Positions 17,705-57,080 of a stretch of DNA of 60,313 bases are shown here, piece after piece. The notes under the pieces are model-generated. The model worked only from the letters and a program-made list of their open reading frames with translations. It had not been told where the DNA came from and searched no databases. This stretch comes from a virus (Duplodnaviria; Caudoviricetes), in the IMG/VR virus record IMGVR_UViG_3300047476_000372, positions 1 to 60,313 of that record, one strand, 5' to 3'. The position numbers and the translations under genes are program-made. The first letter of the stretch is position 1, and every line of letters begins with the position of its first letter.

Positions 17705-17728
17705 ACTATTTGTTTTTAAAAGTTTTAG

Positions 17729-17800
17729 CACCCGTCTGTGGACTCGAACCACCATCTTCGGTTTTGGACACCGACGTTCTACCAGTTTAACTATACGGGC
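17729..17800 (-). tRNA. tRNA-Trp(CCA), atypical
   Basis: Cloverleaf: D arm GTT..TGGTAGAAC, anticodon arm TCGGT-GTCCAAA-ACCGA, T loop TTCGAGT, discriminator G. Mismatches at 7:66 and 49:65; CCA end not encoded. Confidence 0.75.
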
Positions 17801-22894: not shown

Positions 22895-22926
22895 CAAAGT
22901 TAGTTAAATGTTTGTTATCAAACAAA
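22895..22926 (-). promoter_or_regulatory. Bacteroidota promoter TTTG-N20-TAACTTTG
   Basis: Consensus; the spacer contains ATAAC-N6-TTAAC. Confidence 0.75.
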
Positions 22927-25177: not shown

Positions 25178-26125
25178 TTAACCGATTGATGCCATACTCA
25201 AGACACTAGCGAATGCATCGTTGTCTACATTCATTCCTGCACCAATATACTTAGACTCTATCCTGCCATTCTCACGTGTTGGTGCATGCATAACGTGTGA
25301 GGTATAGTGTGTTACGCCACTGAATAAACCCCACAATGTTTCCCCCTTCTGAGCCATCTCTCTAGAGATTGATGTAGTCAGCTCAGTAGCCTTCTCGATA
25401 GCTTGCCTGCTGTACGTATCCTCAGCCTTACTGCGTGGTGTGTTGATGTCAACACCCGTAACTTCTTTTACAATCCTAACAATGTTGCTAGAAGTAACAG
25501 CTACCTCAGATAGTCTGATGAACTGCTCGAAGATAGTTTGCTCCTGCTTTGTCACACCTTCAATCTCTCTGATGCTACGCTCTACCTTGTCATGGATAGA
25601 TGCTGTGTGTCTAGCTGTGTTTTGTAGCTTACCCTTAGCAGCGGCAAAGGTATTGGAACAGCAGATGGTAAAGTTAACAGCACCCCACTTGAGTGACGTA
25701 GTGCCATCGTGACCATTGATACCCGTCACGTAGCCTTTGACCTTTGTCTTGTTGAGTCCGATACCATTAATCTCGTTACCCGTAGATAGCTGTAAGTATA
25801 TCTTTCCACCACCATTGAACATGCCACCACTATGGATATCATATCCCGTCTTCTCAGAGATGCGTATCAACATCTCAGCGAGCTCAGAATTTTGGTATGG
25901 CGTATACCCATCCTTACATGTAGCGAACACCTGCTTGTTGTCATCTCTGACAATAGCCTTGAATGTAGTAGGAGTACCATCGGGCAGGTATAGTTCCTGC
26001 TTAGATACTGACCACCTTAAATCGAATCTATCTAGCAATGTAGCTACTGCTTCAGCGTTAGCGTTATCTGATAGCTGTAGTCCGTCGAATGCACCACCAA
26101 TGATGCTGTCTGCAAAGTTGTTCAT
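25178..26125 (-). CDS. DUF932 family protein
   Basis: L.W.V, VR.D, Y.P.QN.E, G...GG.K, N.HDG, CSNT, RHT, T.WG...GVT.Y. Confidence 0.88.
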   Translation of the reverse strand: MNNFADSIIGGAFDGLQLSDNANAEAVATLLDRFDLRWSVSKQELYLPDGTPTTFKAIVRDDNKQVFATCKDGYTPYQNSELAEMLIRISEKTGYDIHSGGMFNGGGKIYLQLSTGNEINGIGLNKTKVKGYVTGINGHDGTTSLKWGAVNFTICCSNTFAAAKGKLQNTARHTASIHDKVERSIREIEGVTKQEQTIFEQFIRLSEVAVTSSNIVRIVKEVTGVDINTPRSKAEDTYSRQAIEKATELTTSISREMAQKGETLWGLFSGVTHYTSHVMHAPTRENGRIESKYIGAGMNVDNDAFASVLSMASIG

Positions 26126-26396: not shown

Positions 26397-26630
26397 TTAC
26401 TTGTTTTTCTTGTCATCGAATAAATCCCATATGTCTCCATATCCGAACTTAGGTTCTTTCAATACCTCAGCAGCTAACCAATGGATATCCTCAAACTTAA
26501 GGTCTGTTATCCATCTATTACTTTTCAGCTGATTCATTACTCGTAGTGTGGTATTTGGGTAGTCCATTACCTCTCTGAATAGCGCATCCCATACTTGATT
26601 GTTAGCTTTTTCTAGTAGACTTTTGTACAT
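26397..26630 (-). CDS. Hypothetical early protein
   Basis: Packed ORF. Confidence 0.7.
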   Translation of the reverse strand: MYKSLLEKANNQVWDALFREVMDYPNTTLRVMNQLKSNRWITDLKFEDIHWLAAEVLKEPKFGYGDIWDLFDDKKNK

Positions 26631-26631
26631 G

Positions 26632-26838
26632 TTATTGAAAATTTATTGGTTTGATTAGTGTTCCTAGTTCAGCAGACATCTCTGCACGTCTGCACATCTC
26701 TGCCCATCCTCTCTTGATTTCAAGGTAGGTTAGACCTAGCTGTTGTTGTATCCTTACATATCTATCGTAGGTAGACTCTACCTTAGATTCAATAGGTCTG
26801 AACTTAGACCTCACTGGCATTTGTTTACGCTGTCTCAT
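26632..26838 (-). CDS. Hypothetical early protein
   Basis: Packed ORF. Confidence 0.65.
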   Translation of the reverse strand: MRQRKQMPVRSKFRPIESKVESTYDRYVRIQQQLGLTYLEIKRGWAEMCRRAEMSAELGTLIKPINFQ

Positions 26839-26844
26839 ATTGTG

Positions 26845-27072
26845 TTATATTTTTTCAATAAAAATGTATCCTATCCAACTATCGGTAAGGTTATCTAGCT
26901 CTTGGTCATTAACCATATCCATGAATTCTGACATGGGTATCAAGTATACCTTATCATGGAAATTAACTTTTTGAGTGAAATCTAGTAGTGATTCGTATAC
27001 GTTACCTTCAATATCTTCTAAGTCTTTTCTAGATATATGGTTTGTAGTAGCTGTTATTATAAATTGTTTCAT
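26845..27072 (-). CDS. Hypothetical early protein
   Basis: FMD.VNDQE......WIGY. Confidence 0.7.
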   Translation of the reverse strand: MKQFIITATTNHISRKDLEDIEGNVYESLLDFTQKVNFHDKVYLIPMSEFMDMVNDQELDNLTDSWIGYIFIEKI

Positions 27073-27078
27073 ATTGAT

Positions 27079-27300
27079 TTAGTTTTTCTCGTAGAAGTTA
27101 GAATCGAATGTATCATGGAATTGTATGCCTAGCATGATTACAATTGCCATACTACCAAAGGTTACGTATGCTAAGTTGTGACTGATAGTCTTGAACTCAC
27201 CACCATACAACCATACTATGGTAGGCAGTACAGCATAGGCAATAGCGAATAGGATGATGAACAGCAATGATAGGATGAATAGACGTAGTAACTTTTTCAT
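27079..27300 (-). CDS. Small 2-TM membrane protein
   Basis: Two hydrophobic helices. Confidence 0.7.
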   Translation of the reverse strand: MKKLLRLFILSLLFIILFAIAYAVLPTIVWLYGGEFKTISHNLAYVTFGSMAIVIMLGIQFHDTFDSNFYEKN

Positions 27301-27320
27301 GTGTTTAGTTTTTATGGTTA

Positions 27321-27566
27321 TTAGTTTACTTGTAGGTCAAATCTTTGGCAGGTCTCCATGAACTTGGCTTCCATGCCATTCTGAATGTAGACGTAGCCAA
27401 TAGCCTCAATCATCTTCTTTGAGGTAGTACGTGTGCTCAATCCCATAGCAGAGCAGAACATTCTCTTAGCTGTTATGTAGTTTCTAGTGGTGTGCATTCC
27501 GGTCTTGTAGTGCATAACTGAATCTAACAATAGCATGTGTAGTTGTAGTGCGTTAAAGTTTTGCAT
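27321..27566 (-). CDS. First gene of the early arm, hypothetical
   Basis: ORF after an (AC)n leader. Confidence 0.7.
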   Translation of the reverse strand: MQNFNALQLHMLLLDSVMHYKTGMHTTRNYITAKRMFCSAMGLSTRTTSKKMIEAIGYVYIQNGMEAKFMETCQRFDLQVN

Positions 27567-27585
27567 GTGTGTGTGTTTTAGTGTG

Positions 27586-28085
27586 CGACATGGGGAGGTG
27601 GTCGACCCTCAATCCTAGCGGGCTATATCCCATGCCGTAAAGAAGTTTGTTTCGCTTTTTAGCCTTCTTACCTATCGGAGGATGAACTTGTCGACTAGTT
27701 ACCTAGTCCGTCTCTACCCTCGTTCCGATTCCGGTGTGGCGCACGACCTCAAGCTATTTGCTATCGTCGGAAGAACTATGACTGCGAGGCTTCACCCTTG
27801 TCCGCAGAAATCTAACCCTCTCGGGCATCATTGCTGATGTTTTAACGTCATTGTAGGACGAATCCGTTTAGCGTGAGCTTAAGACTAGTGGATTACGCTT
27901 GAGGCACTGATTAGCATTGAAACCGGTCATTCGGTATGGTAACACCCAATTGCATCGGCTGTGCTGCTGTCCTCGTCTCGTGCATTTCTGAAGTTTGGTG
28001 GTCACCACGTGGTTGACATCTTGCGACGTGTACGTGGGATGCATTTCCCTGATTCAGTGTGAGACATCGTTTGAAAGAACTGCGT
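27586..28085 (-). ncRNA. Candidate large ornate structured RNA (~500 nt)
   Basis: ORF-free and GC-elevated; GNRA hairpins; long-range helices 28054-28059/27905-27910 and 27897-27904/27747-27754; 5' boxA-like GTTCTTTCAA; 3' tRNA-like minidomain. Confidence 0.7.
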
Positions 28086-28140
28086 CATTGGTTGTTCGCC
28101 GTTGACATTGTAAAATTGCAAAGAACATTTCACAGTAAGT

Positions 28141-28695
28141 GTTAAAGCTTAGTTAAACCCAAAAAGTTTTTTTTGCCACCCAGCGCAATATGGAACAGCG
28201 TGCGTGTATGCGTGTGTACATGTGCGTGTACATGCGTGCGTGCGTAAGCATACGAAGAAAAAAATAGAAAAATCACAATGAAATGTTAAATCGTATTTGA
28301 AAAGGCAAATTTCCTCAAGGTTGGCATATCTCGGAGTGGGTAAGGTGTTTGTATGTTTCAGAGGGAAATGGGCTAGAATCGCCTAAAAATGGCCTTAAAA
28401 TTGATTGATGAAAAATCGTAATGTGTTCTGTTAAAGTCTTGTTAATAAAGGGTTTACCATTTGGATATGTGCAATAATTGTATTACACGTGGGCAACTAG
28501 TATACCATGAAATATCCAGCGCAACAGGTAAGGTTAAAGAAATGTTAAAGGGTAAACTAGTGGGAAAGGGTATCCCTCACTTAACTACTTGACTACCAAT
28601 AAGTTACACTACTAATCTACTAATTCAATAGACTAGTTATCCACTTAGTGTTAACTTGTTAACTAGTTCACAATCAATCGTTAATGTTTTGTTAA
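28141..28695. promoter_or_regulatory. Four GTTAA-N6-GTTAA (11-bp period) direct-repeat boxes
   Basis: At 28141-28156, 28430-28445, 28533-28548 and 28680-28695. Confidence 0.65.
28198..28246. repeat. 49-bp perfect purine-pyrimidine alternation
   Basis: GCGTGCGTGTATGCGTGTGTACATGTGCGTGTACATGCGTGCGTGCGTA. Confidence 0.9.
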
Positions 28696-29011
28696 AGTTT
28701 TCCCAGTTAGTAGGGTACTCGGTATAGGAATCGGACTTACCCATGCCCCATGCTATGCTTGTTATATGGTATAGTCCCCAAGCCAACTAGATATCTCACT
28801 ATATTTACCCCTAGCCGGGGACAGGCGTACACAAATCTACTCCCTACATACAATAACAGTTAGAGTCAGATGGGAACTAGAGAAGTACCTCCCTTACGAT
28901 GCGCACTTTTCTTCAAACTCAATACAGTATTAGCTTTGATTATGGAGAGTATTAGATACTATATCATACTCCTTAATACGTATAAGAAGGAAACTCCATA
29001 ACTAATTGATA
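28582..29011. promoter_or_regulatory. IHF-consensus-like sites and one near-DnaA box (candidate origin/packaging region)
   Basis: TATCAATTAGTTA (minus, 28999-29011) matches WATCAANNNNTTR; palindromic near-matches at 28582-28606; TTATCCACT at 28637. Confidence 0.4.
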
Positions 29012-29080
29012 ATCAATACTAGAATTATTTATACAACGATAAATTTTCCAGCGTGGTAGAAAATAGGCTATATTTGGCAT

Positions 29081-29539
29081 ATGAAGAAATACGAAGAGTA
29101 CTTAAATAGCCCGTATAAGTTAACGGGTATAGAGGAGAGGTCTTTTATGACTAAGAGCGATGAAACGCTGATACTAGACCCTGAGACTGGTGAGTACTAC
29201 ACCATGAAAAAGGTAGCCAAAGATAAGACTGTTTTACATGATGAGCTAGTATACACTAAGCTGTTTCATGATAACTTTAGCCATTTGATGAGTCTATCTA
29301 ACCCAGCTCTTAGGATTATGCTATATGCTATGACTAATGTAAGACCTATACAACAAACAGTTATGTTAAATATACCAGACATTGCTATAGCATGTAATCT
29401 AGCTAATAGCACAGTCTATAACTGTATATATGAGCTACTAGACAGCAAAATGATATCTAAAAAGCTAGGCTCTAATATAGAATACTGGTTTGACCCTAAC
29501 GTATTCTTTAACGGTAATCGTTTGCGGATTTACAAATAG
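29081..29539 (+). CDS. RepL-like winged-helix replication/maintenance protein
   Basis: D...YTKLF, L..LS..A.R, TVY..I.EL, YWFDP.VFFNGNR. Confidence 0.75.
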   Translation: MKKYEEYLNSPYKLTGIEERSFMTKSDETLILDPETGEYYTMKKVAKDKTVLHDELVYTKLFHDNFSHLMSLSNPALRIMLYAMTNVRPIQQTVMLNIPDIAIACNLANSTVYNCIYELLDSKMISKKLGSNIEYWFDPNVFFNGNRLRIYK

Positions 29540-43258: not shown

Positions 43259-46200
43259 ATGAAGATTGAAAGAAAACTGTTTTCAGGCGTTATGAATTTG
43301 GATGACCCGAATGAGGCCATGGCATCTACTCACCACAAAGAAGCCTTTAATATTCTATTTAAGGGTAATCCGGGAGAGATGAGAGCAGAGAGCATTCCGG
43401 GAAATCAAGCTATTACAAATGCCGGTCTTCAAGCTGGAACAAACGTATGTATTGGTTCTCATTATGACGAACTAAAGCAACGCTTATTCTACTTTGTATA
43501 TAATTCAAATGGTTATGATGCAATATTTGTTTACAGCACAATAACTAGAACTGTAAGCACCTTGTTGATGTCTAAGGTAGATTCTTTGTCTACAGAACCT
43601 TTATTTAATTTTAGCCCAGATAATCCTATAGCATCTGTTAACATACTATATAGGACAGAAGACGATGGTGACATCTTGCATTGGACAGATAGACTAAATC
43701 CTCCAATGAAATTAAATATCAAAGAGGCTTTAGCTGTAAATAAAACATATAATGGTAACTGGAAAAAGAAATATTTGACTGTTGCTAGGCCAATGCCATT
43801 AATATCTCCAGTATGTAAATATGAGGATGATGCTACAACTAATGTAAATAACTTAAAAAGTAAACTATATCAATTTAGGTATAGATGGGTATATAAAGAC
43901 TTTACTAAGTCTACATGGGGTCCTTGGAGCAGATTATTTGCTCCTGTAAATGTTGATACACTTGCAAATGAAATAGATAACCTAAAGAATAATAGAATAT
44001 CTATTACTTATAATAGCGGAGATTCTGATGTAGAGAAGATAGAGATTGCAGCAAGACAGAGTATAGATACTGTATTTTCTGACCCATTTCTTGTAAAAAC
44101 AATTGACAAGACAGGTCTTTCAGACAATTCTGATTATGAATATAAATTCTATAATACAGAAGCGTATCCTGCATTAAGTCTTACGGAATCTAATCAACTG
44201 TTTGACTATGTTCCGCTAAAAGCTAATGCACAAGAGTTGCTTAATGGTAATACCATAATATATGGCGGTATAACAGAAGGAAGGACTGCTAATATTACTC
44301 CATCTGTTACTAAGACTGTAAGTCTAGTACAAAATACAGATACTTCAGCAGACTTGACAATGTCATCTTTTAATAGATACACATTTACATATACACCTGT
44401 ATATAATGTCACTGGAGGAAATCACTACATAATATTTGATGGCGTACCAAATGTTGGAGATTCATACAACTTCTCACTATCTTTTAGAAGAGATATAGGA
44501 GCTGGAGTTCAATCTGTAACTGTTACGATAAGCATACCTACTCTTACTGCTGGTCAAAATACGCAGGCTGCATTAGAAACAATATTAGTGTCTCAGTTAT
44601 CCTCAAATGCCACTTTGCAAAACTATGGTTTAGCTGCAGGAGTTGCTGCTCTTCAGTTAATAGAACCGGGTGAATTCAATGGCAAGAGAGGTGTTAAGAT
44701 TCCGGGAAATAGTGTAAACAAATCATGGATATTAGACTCATATAATTTTGTATATAACTATGCAGGTGGCGGAGGACTACCTGTAGACCCAACAGGTGTT
44801 AATACAGCTTGTTATAAACATAAATCTAGATATTCTTTCGGTATCTGTTACTTTGACGAATATGGCGTAACAAATGGTGTAGTAACATCAGATAATATGA
44901 GTGTTATAACTCCAGAAATAGACTCTACCGCACTTGCTTCAACTGAGTTAAAGATACCACTAATACAATTTGACATTAGTCATCAAGCTCCATCTTGGGC
45001 AAGATATTTCTCATTTGTAAGGACTACGAATCTAACCGTATCTGATTTTAAGACTATAATAAGTACTGATACGTATAAAGACGCATCCAATACGTATGCA
45101 TATTTAGATATAACTGATTATCAACTTAATAAGTCTGGATATCCAGCTTACTCTTTTAGCAAGGGTGACAGAGTTAGGATAGTTGGACTAAAGAGTGGTG
45201 TAGATAATGTTTATGATTATCCTGTATTTGGTGTTGTTGCAAGTAGTGATATTACAACAGCTGCACCTCCTGTAAGGGATAGAATATGGTTAAAAGTTCC
45301 TTACGATTCAGGTGTAATGTTAAACTTTGGAACAGCTGGCTACAAGGAGTATTATTTAGAGGTATATACGCCTACAGTAAATACAAGCGATGATGTAAGG
45401 GTGTTTTATGAATTTGGAGAAACATATCCTGTCATCATAGATGGAGTTAACAGGTATCACACTGGCATGGCTGGAGAGAATAGTCAAACGAGTGTACAGC
45501 CAGCAACATTCAAGTTTGTTAGAGGTGATGTATACTCAAGACTTAGAAATGAATTATGGATTCTAGATAAATCAATGTCTGATAAGTACAATTCTAATTT
45601 TGATGGAAACGGAAGGGCATTCGTCGTGGATGAGTATGCAAAAGAAACTTACTTTCCAACACTAGTTAGATATTCACTTGATTATCAAGCAGGTACAAAC
45701 ATAAATTTAACTAACACATTCTATGCTTCTAACTTTGATGAGTATGATAGAGAAAAGGGTGATATACAAAGATTAAAGATTAGGGGTAGACAGCTTAGAG
45801 TATTTCAGAATAGAGCTTGTGGAGTAGTACCTGTATTACAGAACGTAGTTCAGACTGTAGATGGTAGCGGTGTTTTATCACAGAGTGCTGAGATTATTAA
45901 TAAGATTCAGTACTATTTAGGAGACTATGGAATAGGAACTCAATTCTGTTCTCTATCTTCATCTGCTCAGGCAGACTACTTTACAGACCCTGTAAGAGGT
46001 TGTCAAGTAAGATTAAGTGCTGACGGTCTTACTCCAATAACAGAGTTGTATAAGGCTCACTTCTACTTGACTCCTCTAATAGTTAAATACAATAAAGTAA
46101 GGAATAATATTACTGGTCAAGGTAAGGCTAAGATACTTGGTATATATGACCAATTTAATGAGGAGTTTGTTACCTGTATGCAGGAGAGTGCTGCTGGTGA

Positions 46201-46723
46201 CGACAAGAGCAATCCATATACATTTGGTTTTAATGAGTTTAGGAATGCATATACTTCATTCTATGACTATAGCCCAGAATGGATGACTACAGCGGAGAAC
46301 TTGGTCATATCATGGAAGAACGGTATTCTCTACACTCATGATAATACCACAAACTATTGCAACTTCTATGGAGTTCAATATAAGCCATCTTTGACACTGC
46401 TTTTGAACCAGTTTCCTCAGATTAAAAAGAGGTATAACACATTGACTTTGTTAGCTAATAAGGTATGGGCTCCTACAACAGCTGGAGACATTACTACTAA
46501 CCTGTCTCAGACTTCTAGCCTACAAGCATCTGACTTTATATTTAAGGATGACAAGATACATGTAGCCTTTAAGAGGGATGCTTCTAGCACAGGTGGTCTG
46601 TACAATGGTAACGTATTGAAGGGTAACTGGTTAAGAATTAAATTATCACCAGTTAATGGCAATGAATTCGTAAATTTGTATTATATAGAATCATCAATTT
46701 TAGAACCTTTTTATAATAGATAA
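43259..46723 (+). CDS. Tail stabilisation/muzzle protein (P22 gp10-like)
   Basis: F.G.MNLD, WTD..NPP.K.N, F.YR..Y.D, P.KA.AQE..GN..IYG...EG, G.IQ.L, YFTD..RG...RL..DG.TPI. Confidence 0.8.
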   Translation: MKIERKLFSGVMNLDDPNEAMASTHHKEAFNILFKGNPGEMRAESIPGNQAITNAGLQAGTNVCIGSHYDELKQRLFYFVYNSNGYDAIFVYSTITRTVSTLLMSKVDSLSTEPLFNFSPDNPIASVNILYRTEDDGDILHWTDRLNPPMKLNIKEALAVNKTYNGNWKKKYLTVARPMPLISPVCKYEDDATTNVNNLKSKLYQFRYRWVYKDFTKSTWGPWSRLFAPVNVDTLANEIDNLKNNRISITYNSGDSDVEKIEIAARQSIDTVFSDPFLVKTIDKTGLSDNSDYEYKFYNTEAYPALSLTESNQLFDYVPLKANAQELLNGNTIIYGGITEGRTANITPSVTKTVSLVQNTDTSADLTMSSFNRYTFTYTPVYNVTGGNHYIIFDGVPNVGDSYNFSLSFRRDIGAGVQSVTVTISIPTLTAGQNTQAALETILVSQLSSNATLQNYGLAAGVAALQLIEPGEFNGKRGVKIPGNSVNKSWILDSYNFVYNYAGGGGLPVDPTGVNTACYKHKSRYSFGICYFDEYGVTNGVVTSDNMSVITPEIDSTALASTELKIPLIQFDISHQAPSWARYFSFVRTTNLTVSDFKTIISTDTYKDASNTYAYLDITDYQLNKSGYPAYSFSKGDRVRIVGLKSGVDNVYDYPVFGVVASSDITTAAPPVRDRIWLKVPYDSGVMLNFGTAGYKEYYLEVYTPTVNTSDDVRVFYEFGETYPVIIDGVNRYHTGMAGENSQTSVQPATFKFVRGDVYSRLRNELWILDKSMSDKYNSNFDGNGRAFVVDEYAKETYFPTLVRYSLDYQAGTNINLTNTFYASNFDEYDREKGDIQRLKIRGRQLRVFQNRACGVVPVLQNVVQTVDGSGVLSQSAEIINKIQYYLGDYGIGTQFCSLSSSAQADYFTDPVRGCQVRLSADGLTPITELYKAHFYLTPLIVKYNKVRNNITGQGKAKILGIYDQFNEEFVTCMQESAAGDDKSNPYTFGFNEFRNAYTSFYDYSPEWMTTAENLVISWKNGILYTHDNTTNYCNFYGVQYKPSLTLLLNQFPQIKKRYNTLTLLANKVWAPTTAGDITTNLSQTSSLQASDFIFKDDKIHVAFKRDASSTGGLYNGNVLKGNWLRIKLSPVNGNEFVNLYYIESSILEPFYNR

Positions 46724-48860: not shown

Positions 48861-51800
48861 ATGCCAGATAAGGTATCACCATCGAAATTTGCTGCATCTG
48901 TAAAAGCGAAATATCCTGAATATCAGTCATACGATGATATCGAATTGACTAATGCAATAATCAAGAAATTCCCAGAATATAAAGAATACGTAGATTTTGG
49001 TGGTCCTGTGCCTGCTGCTAAACCTAGACCAACAGGAGGACTACCTAGTTTTCAACAACAGGTAGAGTACATGACTCCTCTTGTTTCAGAGGAACAGCCA
49101 AGGCCTTCTAAATATCAGGAGGCTGTTAATAAAGACAAGAGCGAGATTGGTAAGACAGCATCTACTTTTTACAATACCATACTAGGTTCATTTGAAACAT
49201 TAACAAAACTTGCTACAGAATTACCAGCTGCATTTCCTGTAACACCATACCAATTTTCTCCTGTAGATATTGGTGGTGCAGCAGAATCTGCTAGGAAATT
49301 TCAACAGCTACCATTAGAGGAAAGACTAAAGCCAGTAAAAGAATCAAGAAAAGGTATTGAACGTGCTTTTGATGTAGTACGTTCTGGGTATACTACTAGA
49401 GAAGAAGAAGCTGCACTAAAAGGACAATTTGATGTAACAGATGGTATAGGTTTTAAGGATTTTCAAGCATTATTAGCTATGTCAGGTGGTATAGCTACAG
49501 ACATGGCACTAGGTGCTGCTACTGGAGGAGCTACATTTGTTGGCCAAGGAATGCAGTATGCTTTTGAAGATTATGATAATGCAGTTCAAAAGTCTGGATA
49601 TGCTATGGACCCTAAAGCAAGAAACCTATATGGTATTGCTGGTGGTGTAATTAATGGTGTATTAGAAAAATTTGCGGTAGATAAGATAGTTGGAGATGTA
49701 CCTGTATTTAGAGATTTGCAGAGAAAAGTAATTGCAAATGTTTTAAAGAATACAGCTAATGTCACAGGCAAAAGAGCTATAGATGCTATAGAAGAAGCTG
49801 CTGTAGCAGAAGTTAGAAAACTATCTAGTAATCTTAAAAGAGCTGGATATAGAGCATTAGTGGAAGGTGGGACAGAAGCTGCTCAAGCTGCTCTAGAAGA
49901 TGGAATGAAGTTTGCATCAAATGCTGTACAAGGCAATGAGGTATTTAATGAAGAAGAAATTGCTAAAGGTTTTATATCTAATGTAGTAAACTCTGCAGTA
50001 GCTGGAGGTGTATTTGGCCCTATGCTAGGAGCAGGAGCAGATATAACTTTTGGCAAGAATGTAAACACTGAGATACTTACAGATATTGCTAACGCAAAAA
50101 CTACTGAAGATTTAGATGGTATAAGACAAGAGCTTACAAAGACATTTGATGAGAATAACTTCTCTCAAGAAGAGCGTGATATTATCATGAATAATGCCAA
50201 TAGGTATGCACAGATAAAGCAGACTATTCCAGAAGGAACTCCTGCATTATCACAATCTGTTGCAATACCTAAGATTGAGCAGAGAATGAAGCTTGATGAA
50301 GAGATTAATAAAAAGACAGAATATATAAATACTGTTGATGAAGCTGTTAGGGGTTCTGAAGAACAAGAGCTTTCTTTCCTTCAAGATAAGAGAGCATCTT
50401 TGAATGATGAAATTAGAGAAGTAATATCTAATGATGTATTTAATTATACAGAAGAAAATGGTAAGTATTACAAATCATTAGAAGGTGGAGCAAAAGAAGA
50501 AATATCAAAAAATAGATACGATTTAGAACAAATTAAAAGAGGAAACTATGCCACTACAGAAAGCAAAGAGCAAGTCCAAGAAGGACGTCCAGAAGGCGAT
50601 ATCAGCCAACGTCAGGGAGCTCAAGAAATCCAAGACCAAGAGGCCTTTAAATCAGATATTGGCTATCGCTATATCGTCGGCGAAGAAGGGGATGACATCC
50701 CGATAACAGCACTTCTAAACAAGAAGGTTAGAGTTAAGGGACAGCCTGCTATTCTATATCAACAAGGACAAACTATTGAAGCTAGGATTATAGGTACAAA
50801 TCGTATCATAGAAATAGGTAATGTAAATAAGTTAATGAATGAGTTACCTGATGCATACGATATTGAACTAGATGAGGTGCTTGTAACAGAGACTCCACAG
50901 GGATATAGAATTGAAGGTCAGCCACTAAAGAATACTAATGAGAATCCACTAGACGCAATTAGTCTAGACCAGAATGGTAATGTGATGAATGTTGTTCTTA
51001 CAACACCTGCTGGTAAGAGAAGGAAGTTTAGAGGCCAAGTAGCTCAGGACTTAGCATACCAAATACAACTAAAAGAAATACTAAAAGATGAAGAACAATT
51101 TGAAGAGTTCCTTACAAGGGAGCACCAAGCAGAACTCGATGCAGCAGCCAAAATCGCAGCCCAGCAAGAACCTGAGCAAGTTCAAGAGCCTGTCCAAGAA
51201 CAGGCAGTTGGAGTTGATGAAACAATTTCTCCAAGGCAAGTCGAACCAACCTATGGCAGGGTCACAGACAGAGATGCAACAACAAGCGTAAGGCTTCCTA
51301 ATCCAAATAGGATTCAAAGAAAGGTATTGAATGATGCTAGAAAAGTTGCAACTGCATTAGAGATATTTATACCTAGAACTACTGGACAAGCAGTACAGAT
51401 AAGTTTGCATGATGCTAACTCATTTGAGGAGGCTGTAGTTGCAGCAGGTGGAACACAACAAGACGCTACGTCCAGAGGGTTCTACATGGCAACAGATGGT
51501 AGCATACATCTTAACATGGATAACTTAGAAACAGATACTGTTCTTCACGAAGGATTTCATCCAGTACTTGACTTTGTAGAGGCTACAAACCCTGCAAAGA
51601 TTAATGAGTTCTATAATAAGTTAGCTTCAATACCGGGTGCTGAGCCAATTATAGCTAAGGCAAAAGAACTATATGGAGAAGGGGATGCACACAAGAAGGA
51701 AGCTATAACAGACTTTGTTGCTGCTGTAGCTGATGGTAGAGTAGTTGTAAATCCATCTAACTTCCAAAAGATTAAGGCATTTGTTTTAAATCTTGTTAAG

Positions 51801-54800
51801 AGTCTTGGAATAGGTAGTGGTCAGAAAATACTTACCGTAAAAGATGAGACTGGATTAGTAGAATTATCTAAATATATAACAGAACAGTTTACGTCTGAGT
51901 TTGGACTTATAACTACAGTAGATGTAGCTAATATTATTTCTGAAAAAGAAGCAAATAGAGAGATTGCTGAGGTAGAAAAAGATTTAATAGGTGAAAAGCA
52001 ATACGATTCTTCTGAAGGTCAAGACGTTGATAAAACCATTCCTGAAAAAGGTAGTGGTAGGGGTCCTCAGTTTAGCAGGTCTACACTAGAGAACGCTAAG
52101 AATAATTTAAAGAAGGTATCTGATTTAGCTGGTACTAAGATTGCTAGAGTTGTGTTTTATGACATGACTAGAGTTGGTAAGCTAGATATTAAAAATATAA
52201 AGACAGGTTATACTCCTAATATTGAAGGTAAGGGTGGGCCTTTATACTCATACATGGATAACTCTGTACAGAACAAATCTGTTTTAGCATTTGTGAGTAT
52301 AAACCAAGCTATACAGTCTTTACAGAGACAACAGATGTTCCCAGAAGCTGTACATGCTATTGCATCACAGAATCCAATGACTGCACACTTGGGTAATAAA
52401 TCTACACTTCAAGCTTTGTTTGGTGAAGGTATAGGTATATTCCAGAATGCAGCTAAGACTAAAGCACAAGAAAAAGAGATTGTAAACATATTAGTATCTG
52501 AGATAGATAGGATGTCTAAGATGCCTCCTAACATAGAGGCTAGCAAATCTGTAAATAAGATATTGCAGAAAGTAAATCTATCTTCTATTAAAACTATAAA
52601 TGACTTTAGAGACAATATACTTCTTGGAGAAGGTGACTCATTTGGTAAGAGAGGTTCTATCTTGACTGAATTGCTACAGAATAAACAATCAAAGGTAACA
52701 GCAGCTACAAGAAACTCACATAAGATACTTCACTATAAGTATGGTATACCAACAATAGAAGATATTGCAAAAGGAAACAATCAGAGTGAATTGTCAAATA
52801 TAGAGCTTGGTGATGTTGTAAAATTAGTAAGACCAAGTGTAGAGCCTGTGATATACACTACAGACCCTGCAATGTTTGAAAGATATAGCAATAACCCTAC
52901 TCCAGAGATGAAGAAGGGTGGCATTAGAATAGAATTGCTTCCTGAAGAATCAGCACATGAATCATATCCATTTGTTCTAGTTGGCGAAAACGTAGCATTA
53001 CTAGAAGAGTATATAGGTGCACAACAGCTATATCAAAACTTTAAGGATATAAAGAAGAGTGCTACATTCTTTAAGGTAGGTAGAATGAAGAAAGAGTCTG
53101 AAGCTGGTAGAGTTCCTGTATCTGTAATAACAGAGCAGAAAGGTCCACAGTTTCAGAGACAATATGCTGATGTAGTTAATGGATTCTATTCACCTATAGT
53201 TAAGAAGGTTAATGAATTCAAACAACCTAATGCATCTGCAACTAAGTGGAAAGAAATAGTTGGATTCAAGACAGATGAAGCTGTATACTCAGGGTTGGCA
53301 GACTGGTTAAATTCAAAGAAGCCTAACGAACAGGTTTCTAAACAAGATGTCTTGAAGTTTATGAAAGACAATAGACTTCAGATTATTGAGAAGACAAGAG
53401 GTGGAGACTATAAAGTCTTCGATATGAGAACAGATAGAGAAGTAGATTCATTTGAAACACTAGATGAGGCTCAAGATTTTGTAGCATCTGCTAGAGAGGA
53501 TGGAGATAGATATGGAATAGAAGAACCTATAGGTGGATTTATAAGTAGTATATATGAAGGCTATCAATTGCCGGGTGGTAAGGACTATAAAGAAAGACTC
53601 GTAATGCTTCCGGGTAAAGATATTTTTAAGGGAAATCATTTCAAAAATGATAGCAATATACTTGTACATCTTAGGATGAACACCCGCACCGATGCCGATG
53701 GCAAGAAAGTATTATTCTTAGAAGAGGTTCAGTCAGATTGGGGGCAACAGGGTAAGAGAGAAGAGTTTAAAGAAATTCCTAAAGCTCCATTTGTAACTGA
53801 TACTAATGCTTGGGTAAAGCTTGGAATGAAGATTGCACTTAAAGAAGCTGTTAAGGAAGGTGCAGATAGAATTGCTTGGACTACAGGACAACAGCAAAAT
53901 GAAAGATATGACCTTAGAAAACAGGTAGATGAGATACAGTACAATGACAATGGAGACGGAACTTACAGCTATTCAGCAGTTAAAAATAATTCTGAAATAG
54001 GTTCTAAACAAAATGTAAGTATAAAGGTTGTAGAAGAGGACCTTGGAAAAGATATCGCAGATAAGATACTTTCTTCAGAAGGAAGTAAAATACCTTTTTC
54101 TGATGCTGCTGGAGCAAAGTCTTTAAAAGGTGAAGATTTAAAGTTTGGCGGTAAAGGAATGAATGCATTCTATGGCGATGCACAGAATGTAGGTATTGTT
54201 GGTAAGGTAGCTAAAGCTGTTGTCAAAGAACTTACTGGTAAGGAAGGCGTCATTATAGAAAGTAAAATATCTTCTCCGGTTAATCAAGATGTTATAGATA
54301 GATATAATAGGGCTAGACAATACGGGAATGTTCCAGAGGCTTTAGCTAAAGAATATGAGCAAGCTACTGGTTTACAAGGAACACAGCCAGCTATAGAATT
54401 AACTCCTGAGCTCAAACAATCTGTTAAGGCAGGCATGCCACAGTTCCAGAAAGCTCCAACAAAAGCCATATCTAAGAAGCCTATAGTAGGAGTTGTACAG
54501 AAAACATTTATAGACCAATTTAGATATGGTGTATTAGGTAAGGAGGGAGTAAAACTAAAAGAGGCACAAGCAGGTGAACTGTCAGCAGAACTAGCTAAAG
54601 CTGAGAGGGTTACTAAAAATGCAATACAATTAATAGCTAAGTATAAGAACTCTGTATCTAAGACAGATGTAGAAGACTTCATGACAGGTAATGAAGTAGA
54701 AGGTAATCTACCTGCAGATTTAGCAGCTGCATTAACAGAGGCTAGAGAGCATGTAGATAACATGACTGAAAGATTAATACACTTAGGTGTTATTGATGAC

Positions 54801-57080
54801 CAAGAGACTATAGATTACTACAGAGAGAATAAGGGTAAGTACTTGGTACGTTCTTACGAATCTATAAACTATAAAGATACTAAGGTATCTAAGTTTCTCT
54901 ACGGAGAAGGCTTGGATGTAGATAATGTAACTAAGAAACTAAAGAATGTAGATAAATCTGTTGTAGATGCAGCACTTAAGTTCCTTGCTGATAGGGCTAT
55001 GGAACAGAACTCTTCTTTATCTGAAGAGGATGCTATGAGACAGGCTAGAATTGAGGCTAATGGACTTCTATCAAATGCTGAAGAGTATGTCATGCAGAAA
55101 GGCCTTACTGGCAGCACTAATATAGCTTCTTTAGGAAAGAGACTATCTGATAAAGAGTTTGCTCCAGAACTTAGGGCATTGATGGGTGAATACACCGACC
55201 CTATATATAACTACTATGCATCTATATTTAAGATAGCAAGTCTTACTTCTGCTAGACAATACCTAAACTCTATGAAGGAGTATGGTATGGGTAAATTTAT
55301 GTTCCCATACAAGACAGAAGAAGCTACAGTGCAGATAGCTGGAGAGGGTTCTAGGACCCTTGAGCCACTGAATGGTCTGTATACATTCCCAGAGATTTAT
55401 GAGGCACTAAAGAAGGCAGACAAGGATGTACAGCCAATAATTATCCAGACACTAGGTAGGATACGTAAGTTCAAGACTGTATATAACCCTGCTACACATA
55501 TTAAGAATATAGTAGGTAATACAGGATTTGCTATGTCTAACGGTCACTGGAACTACATGAAAGAGGCTTACAAGTACATGAGAGCTTCTGTCACAGGGGA
55601 GACCGATGAGGATATCAATAGAGTTATGGACACCCTAAACAGATATGGTGTTTTAAACAATACTATTGGTATAGGAGAACTAAAGCAATATTTTAACAGA
55701 CATGAGAATGTAGATGACTTCTTGACTGAGATATATCAAGCTGGTGGTAAGAATAAGGCTATGTTCGGAAAAGTAAAGAATGCTGTTGCTCAAGTACCTA
55801 AGTTCATGGAGAAGGCGTACCAGATAGAGGATGACCTATTCAAGATACTTGGATTTGTGAATGAATCTAACAGGTATGCTAAAGCAATGTATAATGCAGA
55901 GTATAATAAGCTTACTGATGCTCAAAGGTCAGAGGTAGATAAGGTAGTTGCTGAGATTGTAAAGGATACATATCCTACATTCACTCGTGTTCCTAAGATT
56001 GTAAAAACAATTAGTAAGGGATTGTTTATGGGTAACTTCTTGTCATTCCCTGTAGAGTCGGTAAGGACTCAATATAACTCTATGGCACTTGCTTTGAAAG
56101 AGATTAATAGCGGGAATCCAAGGCTTAAAAATGTCGGTCTAACTAGACTTGCAGGAGCTGCTGCATATAATGCTATATTCTCTGGAATGGTTTACTACTC
56201 TTACTCTTTAGCAGCTGCTGGACTTACTGGTATGTTAGGAGTTCTAAATGGAGACGATGAGGATGAAACAGAAAATGCAAAGGCTATATCAAGATACGTC
56301 CCTCAGTGGAATATGAAGACAGATAAATACATTGAAATGTTTTCCAATGGTAAACTTATATATTATGACATTGGTTCTCTAGATTCATATAGCTACCAGA
56401 AAAGAGTTTGGAATGCGTTTTGGTCTAACATAAATAATAAAGAAGGGTTTGATAAGGCTATATCTGAGTCTATTGCAGAAGCAGTTGACCCATGGCTACA
56501 GAGAGACTTTGCGATAGAAAACTTTAATAAGTTGTGGAATAATCCAAACAACTCTATATATAATCCAAAGGATAATGCATGGAGAAAGTTGCAGGATATG
56601 TCTATGTTTGTTGCAAAACAAATGGGTCCGGGTGCTCTTGGAGCATCTATAAAGATAGCTGATAGCTACACTAAGGGAGACTACGACAAAGCTATAAACG
56701 AAGGTTTTTCTCAAATTGTCAGGAGATATGATATAGACCTTGAGAAGCAATTTAAAACATTTATATATGTAGATAATACTAATAAGAATAGTGATATTGG
56801 ATTTAGGGATGCACTTAGGAATACAGAAGATATATATAAAAGAGCTAAAGATGCTGGAGCTAAGGGTATTGAACTAGATGATGCATATAGGGAAGCTGTA
56901 GATAAGTACAAAGAGCAAGTTAAGATTATTAGAGAGTACTACAATTCAGCTACTAGAGCGGGTGTACCAGCCAAGAAGCTTAATGAAATTATGGATAAAT
57001 CAGGGTTTAGTCCAGCTGTTAAGAAGGGTGTAACTGAAGGTAAGTTTAACTTCCCTGACAAGAGTTACATTAAGAAGTAG
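48861..57080 (+). CDS. Giant polyvalent virion/ejection protein (2739 aa) with zincin HEGFH and an EEVQSDW domain
   Basis: N-terminal FA..VK.KYPEY..D.EL motif, HEGFH at 51546, H.R...R...G.K.L.LEEVQSDW; no RNAP DxDGD motif seen. Confidence 0.75.
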   Translation: MPDKVSPSKFAASVKAKYPEYQSYDDIELTNAIIKKFPEYKEYVDFGGPVPAAKPRPTGGLPSFQQQVEYMTPLVSEEQPRPSKYQEAVNKDKSEIGKTASTFYNTILGSFETLTKLATELPAAFPVTPYQFSPVDIGGAAESARKFQQLPLEERLKPVKESRKGIERAFDVVRSGYTTREEEAALKGQFDVTDGIGFKDFQALLAMSGGIATDMALGAATGGATFVGQGMQYAFEDYDNAVQKSGYAMDPKARNLYGIAGGVINGVLEKFAVDKIVGDVPVFRDLQRKVIANVLKNTANVTGKRAIDAIEEAAVAEVRKLSSNLKRAGYRALVEGGTEAAQAALEDGMKFASNAVQGNEVFNEEEIAKGFISNVVNSAVAGGVFGPMLGAGADITFGKNVNTEILTDIANAKTTEDLDGIRQELTKTFDENNFSQEERDIIMNNANRYAQIKQTIPEGTPALSQSVAIPKIEQRMKLDEEINKKTEYINTVDEAVRGSEEQELSFLQDKRASLNDEIREVISNDVFNYTEENGKYYKSLEGGAKEEISKNRYDLEQIKRGNYATTESKEQVQEGRPEGDISQRQGAQEIQDQEAFKSDIGYRYIVGEEGDDIPITALLNKKVRVKGQPAILYQQGQTIEARIIGTNRIIEIGNVNKLMNELPDAYDIELDEVLVTETPQGYRIEGQPLKNTNENPLDAISLDQNGNVMNVVLTTPAGKRRKFRGQVAQDLAYQIQLKEILKDEEQFEEFLTREHQAELDAAAKIAAQQEPEQVQEPVQEQAVGVDETISPRQVEPTYGRVTDRDATTSVRLPNPNRIQRKVLNDARKVATALEIFIPRTTGQAVQISLHDANSFEEAVVAAGGTQQDATSRGFYMATDGSIHLNMDNLETDTVLHEGFHPVLDFVEATNPAKINEFYNKLASIPGAEPIIAKAKELYGEGDAHKKEAITDFVAAVADGRVVVNPSNFQKIKAFVLNLVKSLGIGSGQKILTVKDETGLVELSKYITEQFTSEFGLITTVDVANIISEKEANREIAEVEKDLIGEKQYDSSEGQDVDKTIPEKGSGRGPQFSRSTLENAKNNLKKVSDLAGTKIARVVFYDMTRVGKLDIKNIKTGYTPNIEGKGGPLYSYMDNSVQNKSVLAFVSINQAIQSLQRQQMFPEAVHAIASQNPMTAHLGNKSTLQALFGEGIGIFQNAAKTKAQEKEIVNILVSEIDRMSKMPPNIEASKSVNKILQKVNLSSIKTINDFRDNILLGEGDSFGKRGSILTELLQNKQSKVTAATRNSHKILHYKYGIPTIEDIAKGNNQSELSNIELGDVVKLVRPSVEPVIYTTDPAMFERYSNNPTPEMKKGGIRIELLPEESAHESYPFVLVGENVALLEEYIGAQQLYQNFKDIKKSATFFKVGRMKKESEAGRVPVSVITEQKGPQFQRQYADVVNGFYSPIVKKVNEFKQPNASATKWKEIVGFKTDEAVYSGLADWLNSKKPNEQVSKQDVLKFMKDNRLQIIEKTRGGDYKVFDMRTDREVDSFETLDEAQDFVASAREDGDRYGIEEPIGGFISSIYEGYQLPGGKDYKERLVMLPGKDIFKGNHFKNDSNILVHLRMNTRTDADGKKVLFLEEVQSDWGQQGKREEFKEIPKAPFVTDTNAWVKLGMKIALKEAVKEGADRIAWTTGQQQNERYDLRKQVDEIQYNDNGDGTYSYSAVKNNSEIGSKQNVSIKVVEEDLGKDIADKILSSEGSKIPFSDAAGAKSLKGEDLKFGGKGMNAFYGDAQNVGIVGKVAKAVVKELTGKEGVIIESKISSPVNQDVIDRYNRARQYGNVPEALAKEYEQATGLQGTQPAIELTPELKQSVKAGMPQFQKAPTKAISKKPIVGVVQKTFIDQFRYGVLGKEGVKLKEAQAGELSAELAKAERVTKNAIQLIAKYKNSVSKTDVEDFMTGNEVEGNLPADLAAALTEAREHVDNMTERLIHLGVIDDQETIDYYRENKGKYLVRSYESINYKDTKVSKFLYGEGLDVDNVTKKLKNVDKSVVDAALKFLADRAMEQNSSLSEEDAMRQARIEANGLLSNAEEYVMQKGLTGSTNIASLGKRLSDKEFAPELRALMGEYTDPIYNYYASIFKIASLTSARQYLNSMKEYGMGKFMFPYKTEEATVQIAGEGSRTLEPLNGLYTFPEIYEALKKADKDVQPIIIQTLGRIRKFKTVYNPATHIKNIVGNTGFAMSNGHWNYMKEAYKYMRASVTGETDEDINRVMDTLNRYGVLNNTIGIGELKQYFNRHENVDDFLTEIYQAGGKNKAMFGKVKNAVAQVPKFMEKAYQIEDDLFKILGFVNESNRYAKAMYNAEYNKLTDAQRSEVDKVVAEIVKDTYPTFTRVPKIVKTISKGLFMGNFLSFPVESVRTQYNSMALALKEINSGNPRLKNVGLTRLAGAAAYNAIFSGMVYYSYSLAAAGLTGMLGVLNGDDEDETENAKAISRYVPQWNMKTDKYIEMFSNGKLIYYDIGSLDSYSYQKRVWNAFWSNINNKEGFDKAISESIAEAVDPWLQRDFAIENFNKLWNNPNNSIYNPKDNAWRKLQDMSMFVAKQMGPGALGASIKIADSYTKGDYDKAINEGFSQIVRRYDIDLEKQFKTFIYVDNTNKNSDIGFRDALRNTEDIYKRAKDAGAKGIELDDAYREAVDKYKEQVKIIREYYNSATRAGVPAKKLNEIMDKSGFSPAVKKGVTEGKFNFPDKSYIKK
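50548..50706 (+). CDS. Nested +1-frame small basic protein (52 aa, MPLQKAKSKSKKDVQKAISANVRELKK...ILAIAISSA)
   Basis: Resembles the widespread MPLKKG.S...IS.NI.E......P..QA.AIA.S.A phage protein pattern; A-rich/GAGGA leader; host-frame codons atypical here. Confidence 0.75.
   Translation: MPLQKAKSKSKKDVQKAISANVRELKKSKTKRPLNQILAIAISSAKKGMTSR
51088..51291 (+). CDS. Candidate nested +1-frame protein (67 aa)
   Basis: A-rich leader, amphipathic core, host frame low-complexity with C-ending codons. Confidence 0.5.
   Translation: MKNNLKSSLQGSTKQNSMQQPKSQPSKNLSKFKSLSKNRQLELMKQFLQGKSNQPMAGSQTEMQQQA

What the first reader, a model, noticed from the sequence alone, without database searches (positions are those of the whole stretch)
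27586..28085. ~500-nt ornate structured RNA at the head of the early transcript
Seen: an ORF-free, GC-elevated stretch in an otherwise densely coding AT-rich genome. On the minus strand it starts with boxA-like GUUCUUUCAA. Two domains are closed by back-to-back long-range helices (CACUGA 28059-54 with UCAGUG 27910-05; CCUCAAGC 27904-897 with GCUUGAGG 27754-47). GNRA-capped hairpins include ACGUC-GCAA-GAUGU, CAUCA-GCAA-UGAUG, CCC-GAGA-GGG and GACUAG-GUAA-CUAGUC. It ends in a tRNA-like mini-domain (CGGCAUGGG/CCCAUGUCG enclosing a GAGG-GUCGACCA-CCUC T-arm mimic). Inference: size and ornateness recall ROOL/GOLLD-type phage RNAs, but I recognise no conserved core of those, tmRNA, RNase P or group I/II introns. 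It may be an undescribed class from Bacteroidota phages, made first in infection.
Basis: partly seen in the sequence, partly recalled or inferred. Interest (0 to 1): 0.85.

Follow-up and report, generated by a model that had tools for sequence, protein, structure and literature searches.

The report
New large structured phage leader RNA
The gene-free stretch at the head of this freshwater phage's first leftward operon encodes a roughly 500-base folded RNA that matches no catalogued RNA family, and evolution has preserved its fold, but what it does is still unknown.

Summary
Window 28081-27586 (minus sense) has no conserved ORF, is GC-elevated, and matches no Rfam 15 family.

**Evidence for a structured RNA**
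- A homologue lies in two metagenome contigs (L006 and L007, identical here) in the same position, upstream of the same 81-aa gene.
- It is 84% identical over 407 ungapped columns, and 117 of 119 in a 3' core. Third codon positions of the adjacent gene are 48% identical and the upstream DNA 53%.
- Of 116 RNAalifold pairs, 21 changed on both sides and none broke. Column shuffles gave 5.2±2.3, maximum 11.
- A third lineage (run X15) carries a further C-G to U-A swap in one helix.
- In four public runs, contigs inside the RNA differ at 6 of 1,045 bases. Flanking contigs differ at 69 of 1,313.

**What fails**
- The boxA match is at chance level.
- The single-sequence folding energy is ordinary (z = -0.11).

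I estimate about 0.85 that this is a real, new structured RNA. Function is inferred only: a stable trans-acting early RNA (~0.4) or a cis-acting leader (~0.3). Only two divergent lineages are known. No wider family was found.

The parts
28070..28081 (-). Conserved 5' boundary motif AGUUCUUUCAAA. Homology with L007 begins exactly here. An X4 contig also keeps AGUUCUU with unrelated sequence upstream.
   Evidence: (loose end at 28072)
27975..28065 (-). 5' rod domain (helices H2-H8), capped by ACGUC-GCAA-GAUGU. It has 8 compensatory pairs against L007 in the curated alignment.
27901..27974 (-). Second rod domain (H9-H11). It has 6 compensatory pairs against L007. The X15 variants at 27958, 27959 and 27923 fall here and keep pairing (C-G to U-A; G.U to A-U).
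27782..27894 (-). Cluster of hairpins H12-H17, including CAUCA-GCAA-UGAUG and CCC-GAGA-GGG. It has 5 compensatory pairs. L007 has an 8-nt and a 4-nt deletion, both in loops.
27662..27780 (-). Near-invariant 119-nt core, 117 of 119 identical to L007. Predicted helices H18-H23 include GACUAG-GUAA-CUAGUC. With no variation, the fold here is untested.
27638..27661 (-). Variable A-rich linker, 24 nt here. In L007 it is 56 nt and carries an extra 8-bp hairpin.
27586..27637 (-). Three-way mini-domain: a 9-bp closing stem, a small CCCG-loop hairpin, and a 4-bp hairpin with an 8-nt loop. All three stems are kept with different letters in L007. It is 99% identical in IMG/VR relative G001, whose sequence further upstream is unrelated.
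27567..27585 (-). A/C-rich unpaired spacer running up to the start codon.
27321..27566 (-). First gene of the leftward operon (81 aa, no Pfam or PHROG family). It has 19 homologues, and the RNA is linked to it in both lineages.

Best explanation
The minus strand of window 28081-27586 encodes a previously uncatalogued, roughly 500-nt multi-helix RNA.

**Layout**
- A ~420-nt body: two long rods, a cluster of hairpins, and a near-invariant 119-nt core.
- A variable linker.
- A three-way-junction module 19 nt before the first start codon of the leftward small-gene operon.

**Shown**
- Conservation is far above neutral.
- Compensatory base-pair changes occur in 13 of 23 predicted helices.
- The 5' boundary is sharp.
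- There is no coding potential.
- No known RNA family matches.

**Inferred (about 0.4 given that the RNA is real)**
- The body is made as the first product of this transcription unit and persists as a stable particle. It may be cut from the mRNA in the linker or at the 3' module.
- It acts in trans. Its invariant core would bind a conserved host or phage component during takeover. The 3' module would mark its boundary and keep the translation start region of the first gene unpaired.

I put the probability that it is a genuine structured RNA at about 0.85.
For: **Homologue and conservation**
- The homologue in L006/L007 starts exactly at AGTTCTTTCAAA and runs to the same 81-aa gene.
- Identity is 342 of 407 over the body and 117 of 119 in the core. 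The gene's third codon positions score 39 of 82, and the upstream 400 nt score 195 of 369.

**Covariation**
- Of 116 RNAalifold pairs, 21 changed on both sides, 5 on one side, and 0 broke.
- 100 column shuffles gave 5.2±2.3 such pairs (maximum 11). Consensus energy was -113 against -70.9±7.2 kcal/mol.
- Sliding the 3' partners gave 0-1 such pairs.
- The curated alignment gives 128 pairs, 31 of them compensatory and 0 broken.
- X15 variants add a C-G to U-A swap.

**Polymorphism**
- Contigs inside the RNA differ at 6 of 1,045 nt. Flanking contigs differ at 69 of 1,313 nt.
- One X5 contig (27408-27737) has 10 of its 11 differences listed, all within the gene. The 11th is not shown.

**Sense strand**
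- GNRA loops stay GNRA in 3 of 4 hairpins.
- The minus strand folds slightly better: -113 against -107 kcal/mol, with 21 against 17 compensatory pairs.
- It runs in the same direction as the operon.

**Not coding**
- The alignment holds indels of 1, 1, 1, 1, 8, 1 and 4 nt. Stops occur in every frame.
- L007's 119-aa antisense ORF is not kept in the window.

**For a separable module acting in trans**
- Relative G001 keeps the 3' module and the gene, but its 153 nt upstream are unrelated. Models R1 and R2 find nothing in its 57.9-kb contig.
- In crAss-like Cellulophaga phage phi14:2, two long early intergenic RNAs are abundant and persist through infection (bioRxiv 10.1101/2020.03.07.982082, passages seen).
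- Contigs of RNA runs X15 and X16 cover 27823-28090 and 27681-27857.
Against: - Only two divergent sequences exist (L006 equals L007 here), plus near-identical population variants. No R-scape-type statistics are possible.
- The structure was predicted on the same two sequences that were then counted.
- The single-sequence MFE is unremarkable (z = -0.11).
- The reverse strand gives nearly as good a consensus fold.
- The core is invariant, so its fold is untested. Its identity could reflect a recent exchange between phages.
- No terminator or known processing site separates the RNA from the mRNA, so a purely cis role fits equally well.
- No promoter was identified in the window. L007 has aTTG-N19-TAACTTTG ending 24 nt upstream.
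- RNA-library contigs are shallow (depth 3-6) and could be DNA carry-over. One X15 contig also covers the gene region.
- The G001 contig ends 153 nt upstream of the module, so absence of the body there is not proven.
Confidence: 0.4

Rival explanations
1. It is the same structured RNA, but it works only in cis as a giant 5' leader of the early operon. It could make RNA polymerase resistant to termination (nut/put-like, nucleated by the boxA-like 5' end). Alternatively it could control the stability or translation of the downstream small genes.
For: - The RNA abuts the first ORF with no terminator-like site in 26500-29500.
- It is linked to the same gene in both lineages.
- The conserved 5' AGUUCUUUCAAA is one mismatch from the gammaproteobacterial boxA consensus GYTCTTTAANA (PMC5725501, passage seen).
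- A terminator-like hairpin closes the unit at 25166-25147, and others lie further along the leftward cluster.
- The 3' module sits 19 nt from the AUG.
Against: - boxA-like matches occur at chance frequency, 17 against 16.6 expected.
- No Bacteroidota boxA sequence could be checked.
- From recall, known antitermination RNAs are about 70-120 nt, not about 420 nt.
- The later leftward units have their own Bacteroidota-type promoters at 22895, 19245 and 14943.
- G001 appears to express the same gene behind the 3' module without the body.
Confidence: 0.3
2. The conservation acts at the DNA level. The stretch would be part of a replication origin, a packaging site or a protein-binding control region, or would fold as single-stranded DNA. 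No functional RNA is involved.
For: - It lies in the divergent control region where cumulative GC skew turns.
- It sits next to GTTAA-type repeat boxes and an alternating purine-pyrimidine tract.
- The reverse-complement consensus fold is nearly as good.
Against: - Twenty-one compensatory pairs across 13 helices are not expected for duplex DNA sites.
- GNRA loops are kept on one strand only.
- Repeats and iteron-like boxes lie outside the stretch, upstream of 28140.
- Homology with L007 starts abruptly at 28081, while the repeat-bearing region has diverged to 53% identity.
- Contigs from RNA libraries cover it.
Confidence: 0.07
3. It is a neutral or selfish patch. Its low diversity would come from recent horizontal exchange or a sweep among co-infecting phages, so the predicted fold would be incidental.
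For: - A 119-nt block is 117 of 119 identical between otherwise diverged phages.
- The body is apparently absent from the close relative G001.
- Even the linker is invariant within the window's own population.
Against: - Outside the core, the two lineages differ at 63 of the 65 differing columns in the body. Forty-one of those 65 fall in predicted pairs, and none breaks a pair.
- Exchange does not produce compensatory substitutions.
Confidence: 0.05
4. It is a decayed or recoded protein-coding gene.
For: Short ORFs of up to 58 aa overlap it. L007 has a 119-aa antisense ORF.
Against: - All three stop codons occur in all six frames of the window.
- The indels are not multiples of three.
- No ORF is shared between the window and L007.
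- The stretch is more conserved than the neighbouring real gene.
Confidence: 0.02

Closest known systems
Long early non-coding RNAs of crAss-like Cellulophaga phage phi14:2 (g004-g006 intergenic regions)
   Same: - Both are long ORF-free stretches in the early region of a phage related to those of Flavobacteriia.
- In phi14:2 the RNAs are transcribed from the earliest time point, are more abundant than most genes, and persist. Their function is unknown (passage in bioRxiv 10.1101/2020.03.07.982082).
- The window phage also has a crAss muzzle C-terminal domain protein.
   Different: - There is no sequence or model similarity.
- The phi14:2 region is as AT-rich as its genome, GC 0.29 against 0.28. 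This RNA is GC-elevated.
- No conserved fold has been reported for phi14:2 in the passages I saw.
- Expression of the present RNA has not been measured.
ROOL and GOLLD (giant ornate RNAs often found in prophages)
   Same: They are large, multi-helix, phage-associated RNAs of unknown function. From the abstract listing only, they form RNA-only multimers.
   Different: - The ROOL model RF03087 finds nothing at E<=10.
- No Rfam family matches the stretch. I could not confirm GOLLD's accession, so GOLLD is covered only by the all-family scans.
- This RNA sits as the leader of an operon.
- It is known from only two lineages of one phage group.
Processive antitermination leaders (lambda nut boxA/boxB, rrn boxA, HK022 put)
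   Same: They sit at the head of an early operon. This RNA's conserved 5' motif is one mismatch from GYTCTTTAANA.
   Different: - The motif match is at chance level.
- The element is several times larger.
- No N-like or Q-like partner has been identified.
- The sizes of nut and put RNAs are recalled, not checked here.
tRNA-like modules cleaved by RNase P (comparison for the 3' module only; recalled examples: phage P1 C4 RNA, mascRNA)
   Same: A 9-bp stem continues directly into a 4-bp hairpin with an 8-9-nt loop. This shape resembles an acceptor/T-arm stack, and the module lies at the boundary between the RNA body and the mRNA.
   Different: - ARAGORN and the Rfam tRNA model do not detect it.
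- It has no CCA tail and no canonical T-loop.
- Cleavage is untested.

Membership tests
Any Rfam 15 family (4227 models) | Covariance-model match at the family's gathering score, or any match at E<=10 | tested here: not met
   - the only gathering-level match in the window is tRNA at 17729-17800.
- over 27300-28500 at E<=10 there are 8 weak matches. Seven lie on the purine-pyrimidine tract (28198-28280) and one at 28373-28475. None falls in 27586-28085.
ROOL (RF03087) | Match to the 574-position ROOL model | tested here: not met
   0 matches at E<=10 in the whole record. The tool's own control genomes also gave nothing, so this search is not validated beyond.
tRNA / tmRNA (for the 3' mini-domain) | Cloverleaf recognised by ARAGORN or the Rfam tRNA model | tested here: not met
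   the only tRNA is tRNA-Trp at 17728-17800; no tRNA-clan match at E<=10.
Bacterial RNase P RNA (RF00010) | Model match | tested here: not met
   0 matches in the record. The control rang in 11 of 14 genomes.
Group II intron domains (RF01998, group-II-D1D4-1) | Model match | tested here: not met
   0 matches at E<=10. I called this accession by mistake while looking for GOLLD.
boxA / Nus-factor antitermination site | Single-stranded GYTCTTTAANA-type motif near the 5' end of the transcript | tested here: inconclusive
   - GTTCTTTCAAA at 28080-28070 has 1 mismatch and is conserved in L007.
- Matches with at most 1 mismatch number 17, against 16.6±4.4 expected.
- No consensus for Bacteroidota was available.
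boxA / Nus-factor antitermination site | Binding of NusB-S10 and read-through of terminators | not testable with these tools
   Needs biochemistry.
Conserved structured RNA (generic) | Base pairs kept through compensatory changes more often than chance | tested here: met
   Of 116 pairs, 21 changed on both sides and 0 broke. Shuffles gave 5.2±2.3 and slid controls 0-1. Only 2 distinct sequences were available.
Protein-coding gene | Conserved open frame | tested here: not met

The most novel reading that the evidence does not exclude
It is the founding member of a new class of large phage RNAs. It folds into a compact particle, possibly self-associating through its repeated GAAAUGCA segments, one of which holds the palindrome AUGCAU. 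As the first product of infection it would capture or chemically act on a conserved host machine. That would make it an RNA-only takeover or anti-defence factor, or a new ribozyme. Its tRNA-shaped 3' module would serve as the host-enzyme cut site that releases it.
Probability: 0.15. Interest if true: 0.9.

Novelty: new variant of a known kind. Interest (0 to 1): 0.68.

Why it matters
Large bacterial and phage RNAs above about 400 nt with conserved folds are few. From recall, each such class has eventually pointed to new biochemistry or remains a prominent open problem, as ROOL, GOLLD and OLE do.

This one sits at the very start of an early operon of an uncultured freshwater phage related to those of Flavobacteriia. 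In that host group, the only transcriptome passage I found already reported abundant, persistent early non-coding RNAs of unknown function (phi14:2).

A conserved fold with defined boundaries gives a concrete object for probing, structure work and partner pull-downs. It could show what such early phage RNAs do.

Tried and rejected
**Searches for more homologues (all empty unless noted)**
- blastn 'distant' of the window RNA and of the L007 RNA against 50,697 GenBank phage records: no match.
- tblastn of the 81-aa protein against the same records: no match.
- Five exact or gapped patterns from the RNA body scanned in IMG/VR: 0 hits each.
- A sixth pattern, from the 3' module, found only relative G001.
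- Two patterns scanned in GTDB genome contigs: 0 hits.
- The scan's own index by sequence and by relatives: nothing relevant.
- Model R1 (5' domain) and model R2 (core) found only their own sources in the window plus five loci.
- R1 and R2 found nothing in G001, phi14:2 or Flavobacterium phage elemoE.
- One R1 hit in MW202828.1 at 43374-43479 (E = 0.1, 16 bits) is antisense in a 184-nt gap. I reject it as chance.
- blastn of the RNA against the rest of the window: no paralogue.
- The window and its near kin may be masked in the collections, as the tools state.

**Sequencing runs**
- Of the 20 runs that hold part of the stretch, only 4 were laid (X15, X16, X4, X5).
- Parts of the RNA without RNA-contig cover are no evidence either.

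**Other ideas tested**
- The idea that the giant 2739-aa protein is a virion RNA polymerase found no support. It has no Pfam family, no PDB sequence match and no D-x-D-x-D motif. I make no claim about which polymerase makes the RNA.
- A promoter reading of the 3' module (TTTA-N20-TAGGATTG) is rejected. The -7-like box is not kept in L007, while the stems covary.
- The 5'-3' closing helix CUUUC/GAAGG (H1) is invariant in both sequences. In an X4 contig the 5' strand loses 2 nt, so H1 is unsupported.

**Literature**
- Searches turned up no description of this RNA.
- Fremin et al. 2023 (PMC10690425, passages only) list phage motifs of 29-151 nt that needed at least 3 IMG/VR regions.
- Their supplementary tables, which I could not open, might hold a fragment of this RNA.

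Full report
**Setting.** The window is a 60,313-nt virus record.
- Leftward genes run from 27566 down to about 9300. Rightward genes start at 29081. A 1.5-kb gap without long ORFs lies between them.
- The terminase matches 93 phage records at under 60% identity. These are mostly Flavobacterium (68) and Cellulophaga (15) phages, and the listed top hits are 28-30% identical.
- A 1154-aa protein carries a crAss muzzle C-terminal domain.
- The recalled Bacteroidota promoter motif TTTG-N17-23-TAnnTTTG occurs 8 times against 2.5 expected.
- Twenty public runs, labelled freshwater, lake-water or plain metagenome, hold part of the stretch.

**Observation.** The finding's stretch is GC-elevated: 0.46-0.49 against 0.31-0.41 in the flanks.
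- Its ORFs are 58 aa at most. Every frame carries all three stop codons.
- The quoted hairpins and the 3' mini-domain are present.
- The single sequence folds no better than shuffles (-135.7 kcal/mol, z = -0.11).
- No Rfam 15 family matches at gathering score or at E<=10. ROOL and RNase P models also find nothing. ARAGORN sees no tRNA or tmRNA here.

**Homologues.** IMG/VR holds one relative, G001.
- Its DUF932 protein is 94% identical and its first-gene product 81% identical.
- It shares only 27567-27648, at 99%. The 153 nt upstream, up to its contig end, are unrelated.
- The 81-aa first-gene product has 19 homologues at 64-93% identity.
- A scan of JGI metagenome contigs with the protein alignment gave four loci.
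- L006 and L007 are identical to each other here. They carry a homologue of the whole stretch in the same place, between a diverged control region and the gene, whose product is 67% identical.
- Homology begins abruptly at AGTTCTTTCAAA (28081). Upstream DNA is 53% identical after alignment.
- The RNA body is 84% identical (342 of 407) and its 3' core 117 of 119. The gene is 67% identical in nucleotides, and 48% at third codon positions.

**Conserved structure.**
- RNAalifold on the two sequences gives 116 pairs in 23 helices. Of these, 21 pairs changed on both sides, 5 on one side and none broke. Thirteen helices carry at least one double change.
- One hundred column shuffles that keep the conservation pattern gave 5.2±2.3 double changes (maximum 11). 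Consensus energy was -70.9±7.2 against -113.3 kcal/mol observed.
- Sliding the 3' partners by 1-3 columns gave 0-1 double changes.
- I corrected one gap placement and re-registered the 3' module. That gives 128 pairs, 31 compensatory and none broken. Eight of the 31 lie in the closing stem of the 3' module, whose register is ambiguous because both versions contain GCAUG.
- **Caveats.** There are only two distinct sequences. The fold was derived from them. The reverse strand scores nearly as well (-107 kcal/mol, 17 double changes).

**Independent support from populations.** I laid contigs from two RNA and two DNA runs.
- Pieces wholly inside the RNA differ from the window at 6 of 1,045 bases. 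Flanking pieces of at least 100 nt differ at 69 of 1,313. I left out pieces of 48 nt or less on the simple repeat, and two 37-nt partial pieces.
- One X5 contig spans the gene and the RNA. Ten of its 11 differences are listed, and all ten lie in the gene.
- The three listed X15 differences (27958, 27959, 27923) fall in helix H11. They turn C-G into U-A and G.U into A-U. X15's other two differences were not displayed.
- An X4 contig keeps AGUUCUU, loses two bases after it, and has unrelated sequence upstream. Three lineages therefore share the same 5' boundary.

- CACUGA/UCAGUG keeps 1 of 6 pairs in L007. The real partner of that segment is the local UUCAG, with 3 compensatory changes.
- CCUCAAGC/GCUUGAGG keeps 6 of 8 pairs. 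Its two disruptive changes are compensated in the rival helix GAGG/CCUC.
- The GCAA-capped hairpin at 28029-28016 covaries, with its loop changing GCAA to GAAA.
- CAUCA-GCAA-UGAUG has an invariant stem, with the loop changing to GAAA.
- CCC-GAGA-GGG becomes CCG-UAAU-UGG.
- The GUAA hairpin is invariant.
- The 3' mini-domain keeps all three stems with different letters.
- The boxA likeness is one mismatch from GYTCTTTAANA (PMC5725501, passage). That is at chance frequency in this window.

**Anatomy.**

| Part | Window coordinates |
|---|---|
| Boundary motif | 28081-28070 |
| 5' rod | 28065-27975 |
| Second rod | 27974-27901 |
| Hairpin cluster | 27894-27782 |
| Near-invariant core | 27780-27662 |
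| Variable linker (24 nt here, 56 nt in L007) | 27661-27638 |
| Three-way module | 27637-27586 |
| A/C-rich spacer | 27585-27567 |
| Start codon | 27566 |

- No terminator-like site lies between the RNA and the genes.
- The first one on this strand is at 25166-25147, after the DUF932 gene.

**Mechanism.**
- **Shown:** a conserved, non-coding, folded element with sharp boundaries, co-oriented with and abutting the operon.
- **Inferred:** it is transcribed as the head of that unit.

I favour a stable RNA that acts in trans (about 0.4), for four reasons:
- The body looks separable. G001 keeps the module and the gene, but R1 and R2 find no body in its 57.9-kb contig.
- The 119-nt core is conserved far beyond what base pairing needs.
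- At about 420 nt, its size is typical of stand-alone RNAs.
- phi14:2 makes abundant, persistent early non-coding RNAs.

A cis-acting leader (about 0.3) fits the lack of a terminator and the fixed linkage to the first gene. DNA-level, hitch-hiking and decayed-gene readings are unlikely, as set out under the rival explanations.

**Known relatives and novelty.**
- The closest known cases are the phi14:2 early RNAs, which share no sequence or model similarity, ROOL/GOLLD, and nut/put leaders.
- It is a member of none of these by any test I could run.
- I found no description in five literature searches. I could not see supplementary tables.
- I rate it a new family within the known kind of large phage-borne structured RNAs.
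- Its known range is narrow, one group of uncultured freshwater phages, and its function is open.

Noticed in passing
window 28198-28255; L007 2757-2795: An alternating purine-pyrimidine (CG/CA) tract of about 50 bp lies upstream of the RNA in both lineages, with different sequence but the same character. It draws spurious miRNA-model matches and many unrelated contigs (depth 41 in X4).
   Followed up: partly
window 28141-28702; L007 about 2430-2620: Repeated GTTAAAG/GTTAA boxes fill the divergent control region (families D1, D4 and D5). Similar boxes occur in L007 although the region is only 53% identical. They are likely binding sites for a regulator or replication protein.
   Followed up: partly
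L003 (G001) 1-235: The IMG/VR relative keeps the three-way module at 99% identity over 82 nt, but its 153 nt upstream are unrelated to the window. A possible divergent ORF start reads off the contig end.
   Followed up: partly
window 43259-46723 and 48861-57080: The 1154-aa protein has a crAss muzzle C-terminal domain (E = 5e-6). The next large protein, 2739 aa, has no Pfam family, no PDB sequence match and no DxDxD motif.
   Followed up: partly
L007 2935-3294 (minus strand): A 119-aa ORF lies antisense to the RNA homologue. It is not kept in the window, where the same strand holds ORFs of 51 aa at most.
   Followed up: yes
window 28049-28042 and 27988-27981: The invariant 8-mer GAAAUGCA occurs twice in the 5' rod. 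The first copy extends to the palindrome AUGCAU. AUGCA recurs at 27955-27951. This could allow loop-loop or self-association, but that is untested.
   Followed up: no
window 5834, 14943, 19245, 22895 and others: Bacteroidota-type promoter motifs (TTTG-N17-23-TAnnTTTG) occur 8 times against 2.5 expected. Several lie ahead of leftward gene blocks, which suggests separate transcription units downstream of the RNA's unit.
   Followed up: no
window 25178-26125: The last gene of the RNA's transcription unit encodes a DUF932 protein (Pfam E = 2e-25). A terminator-like hairpin follows at 25166-25147.
   Followed up: no
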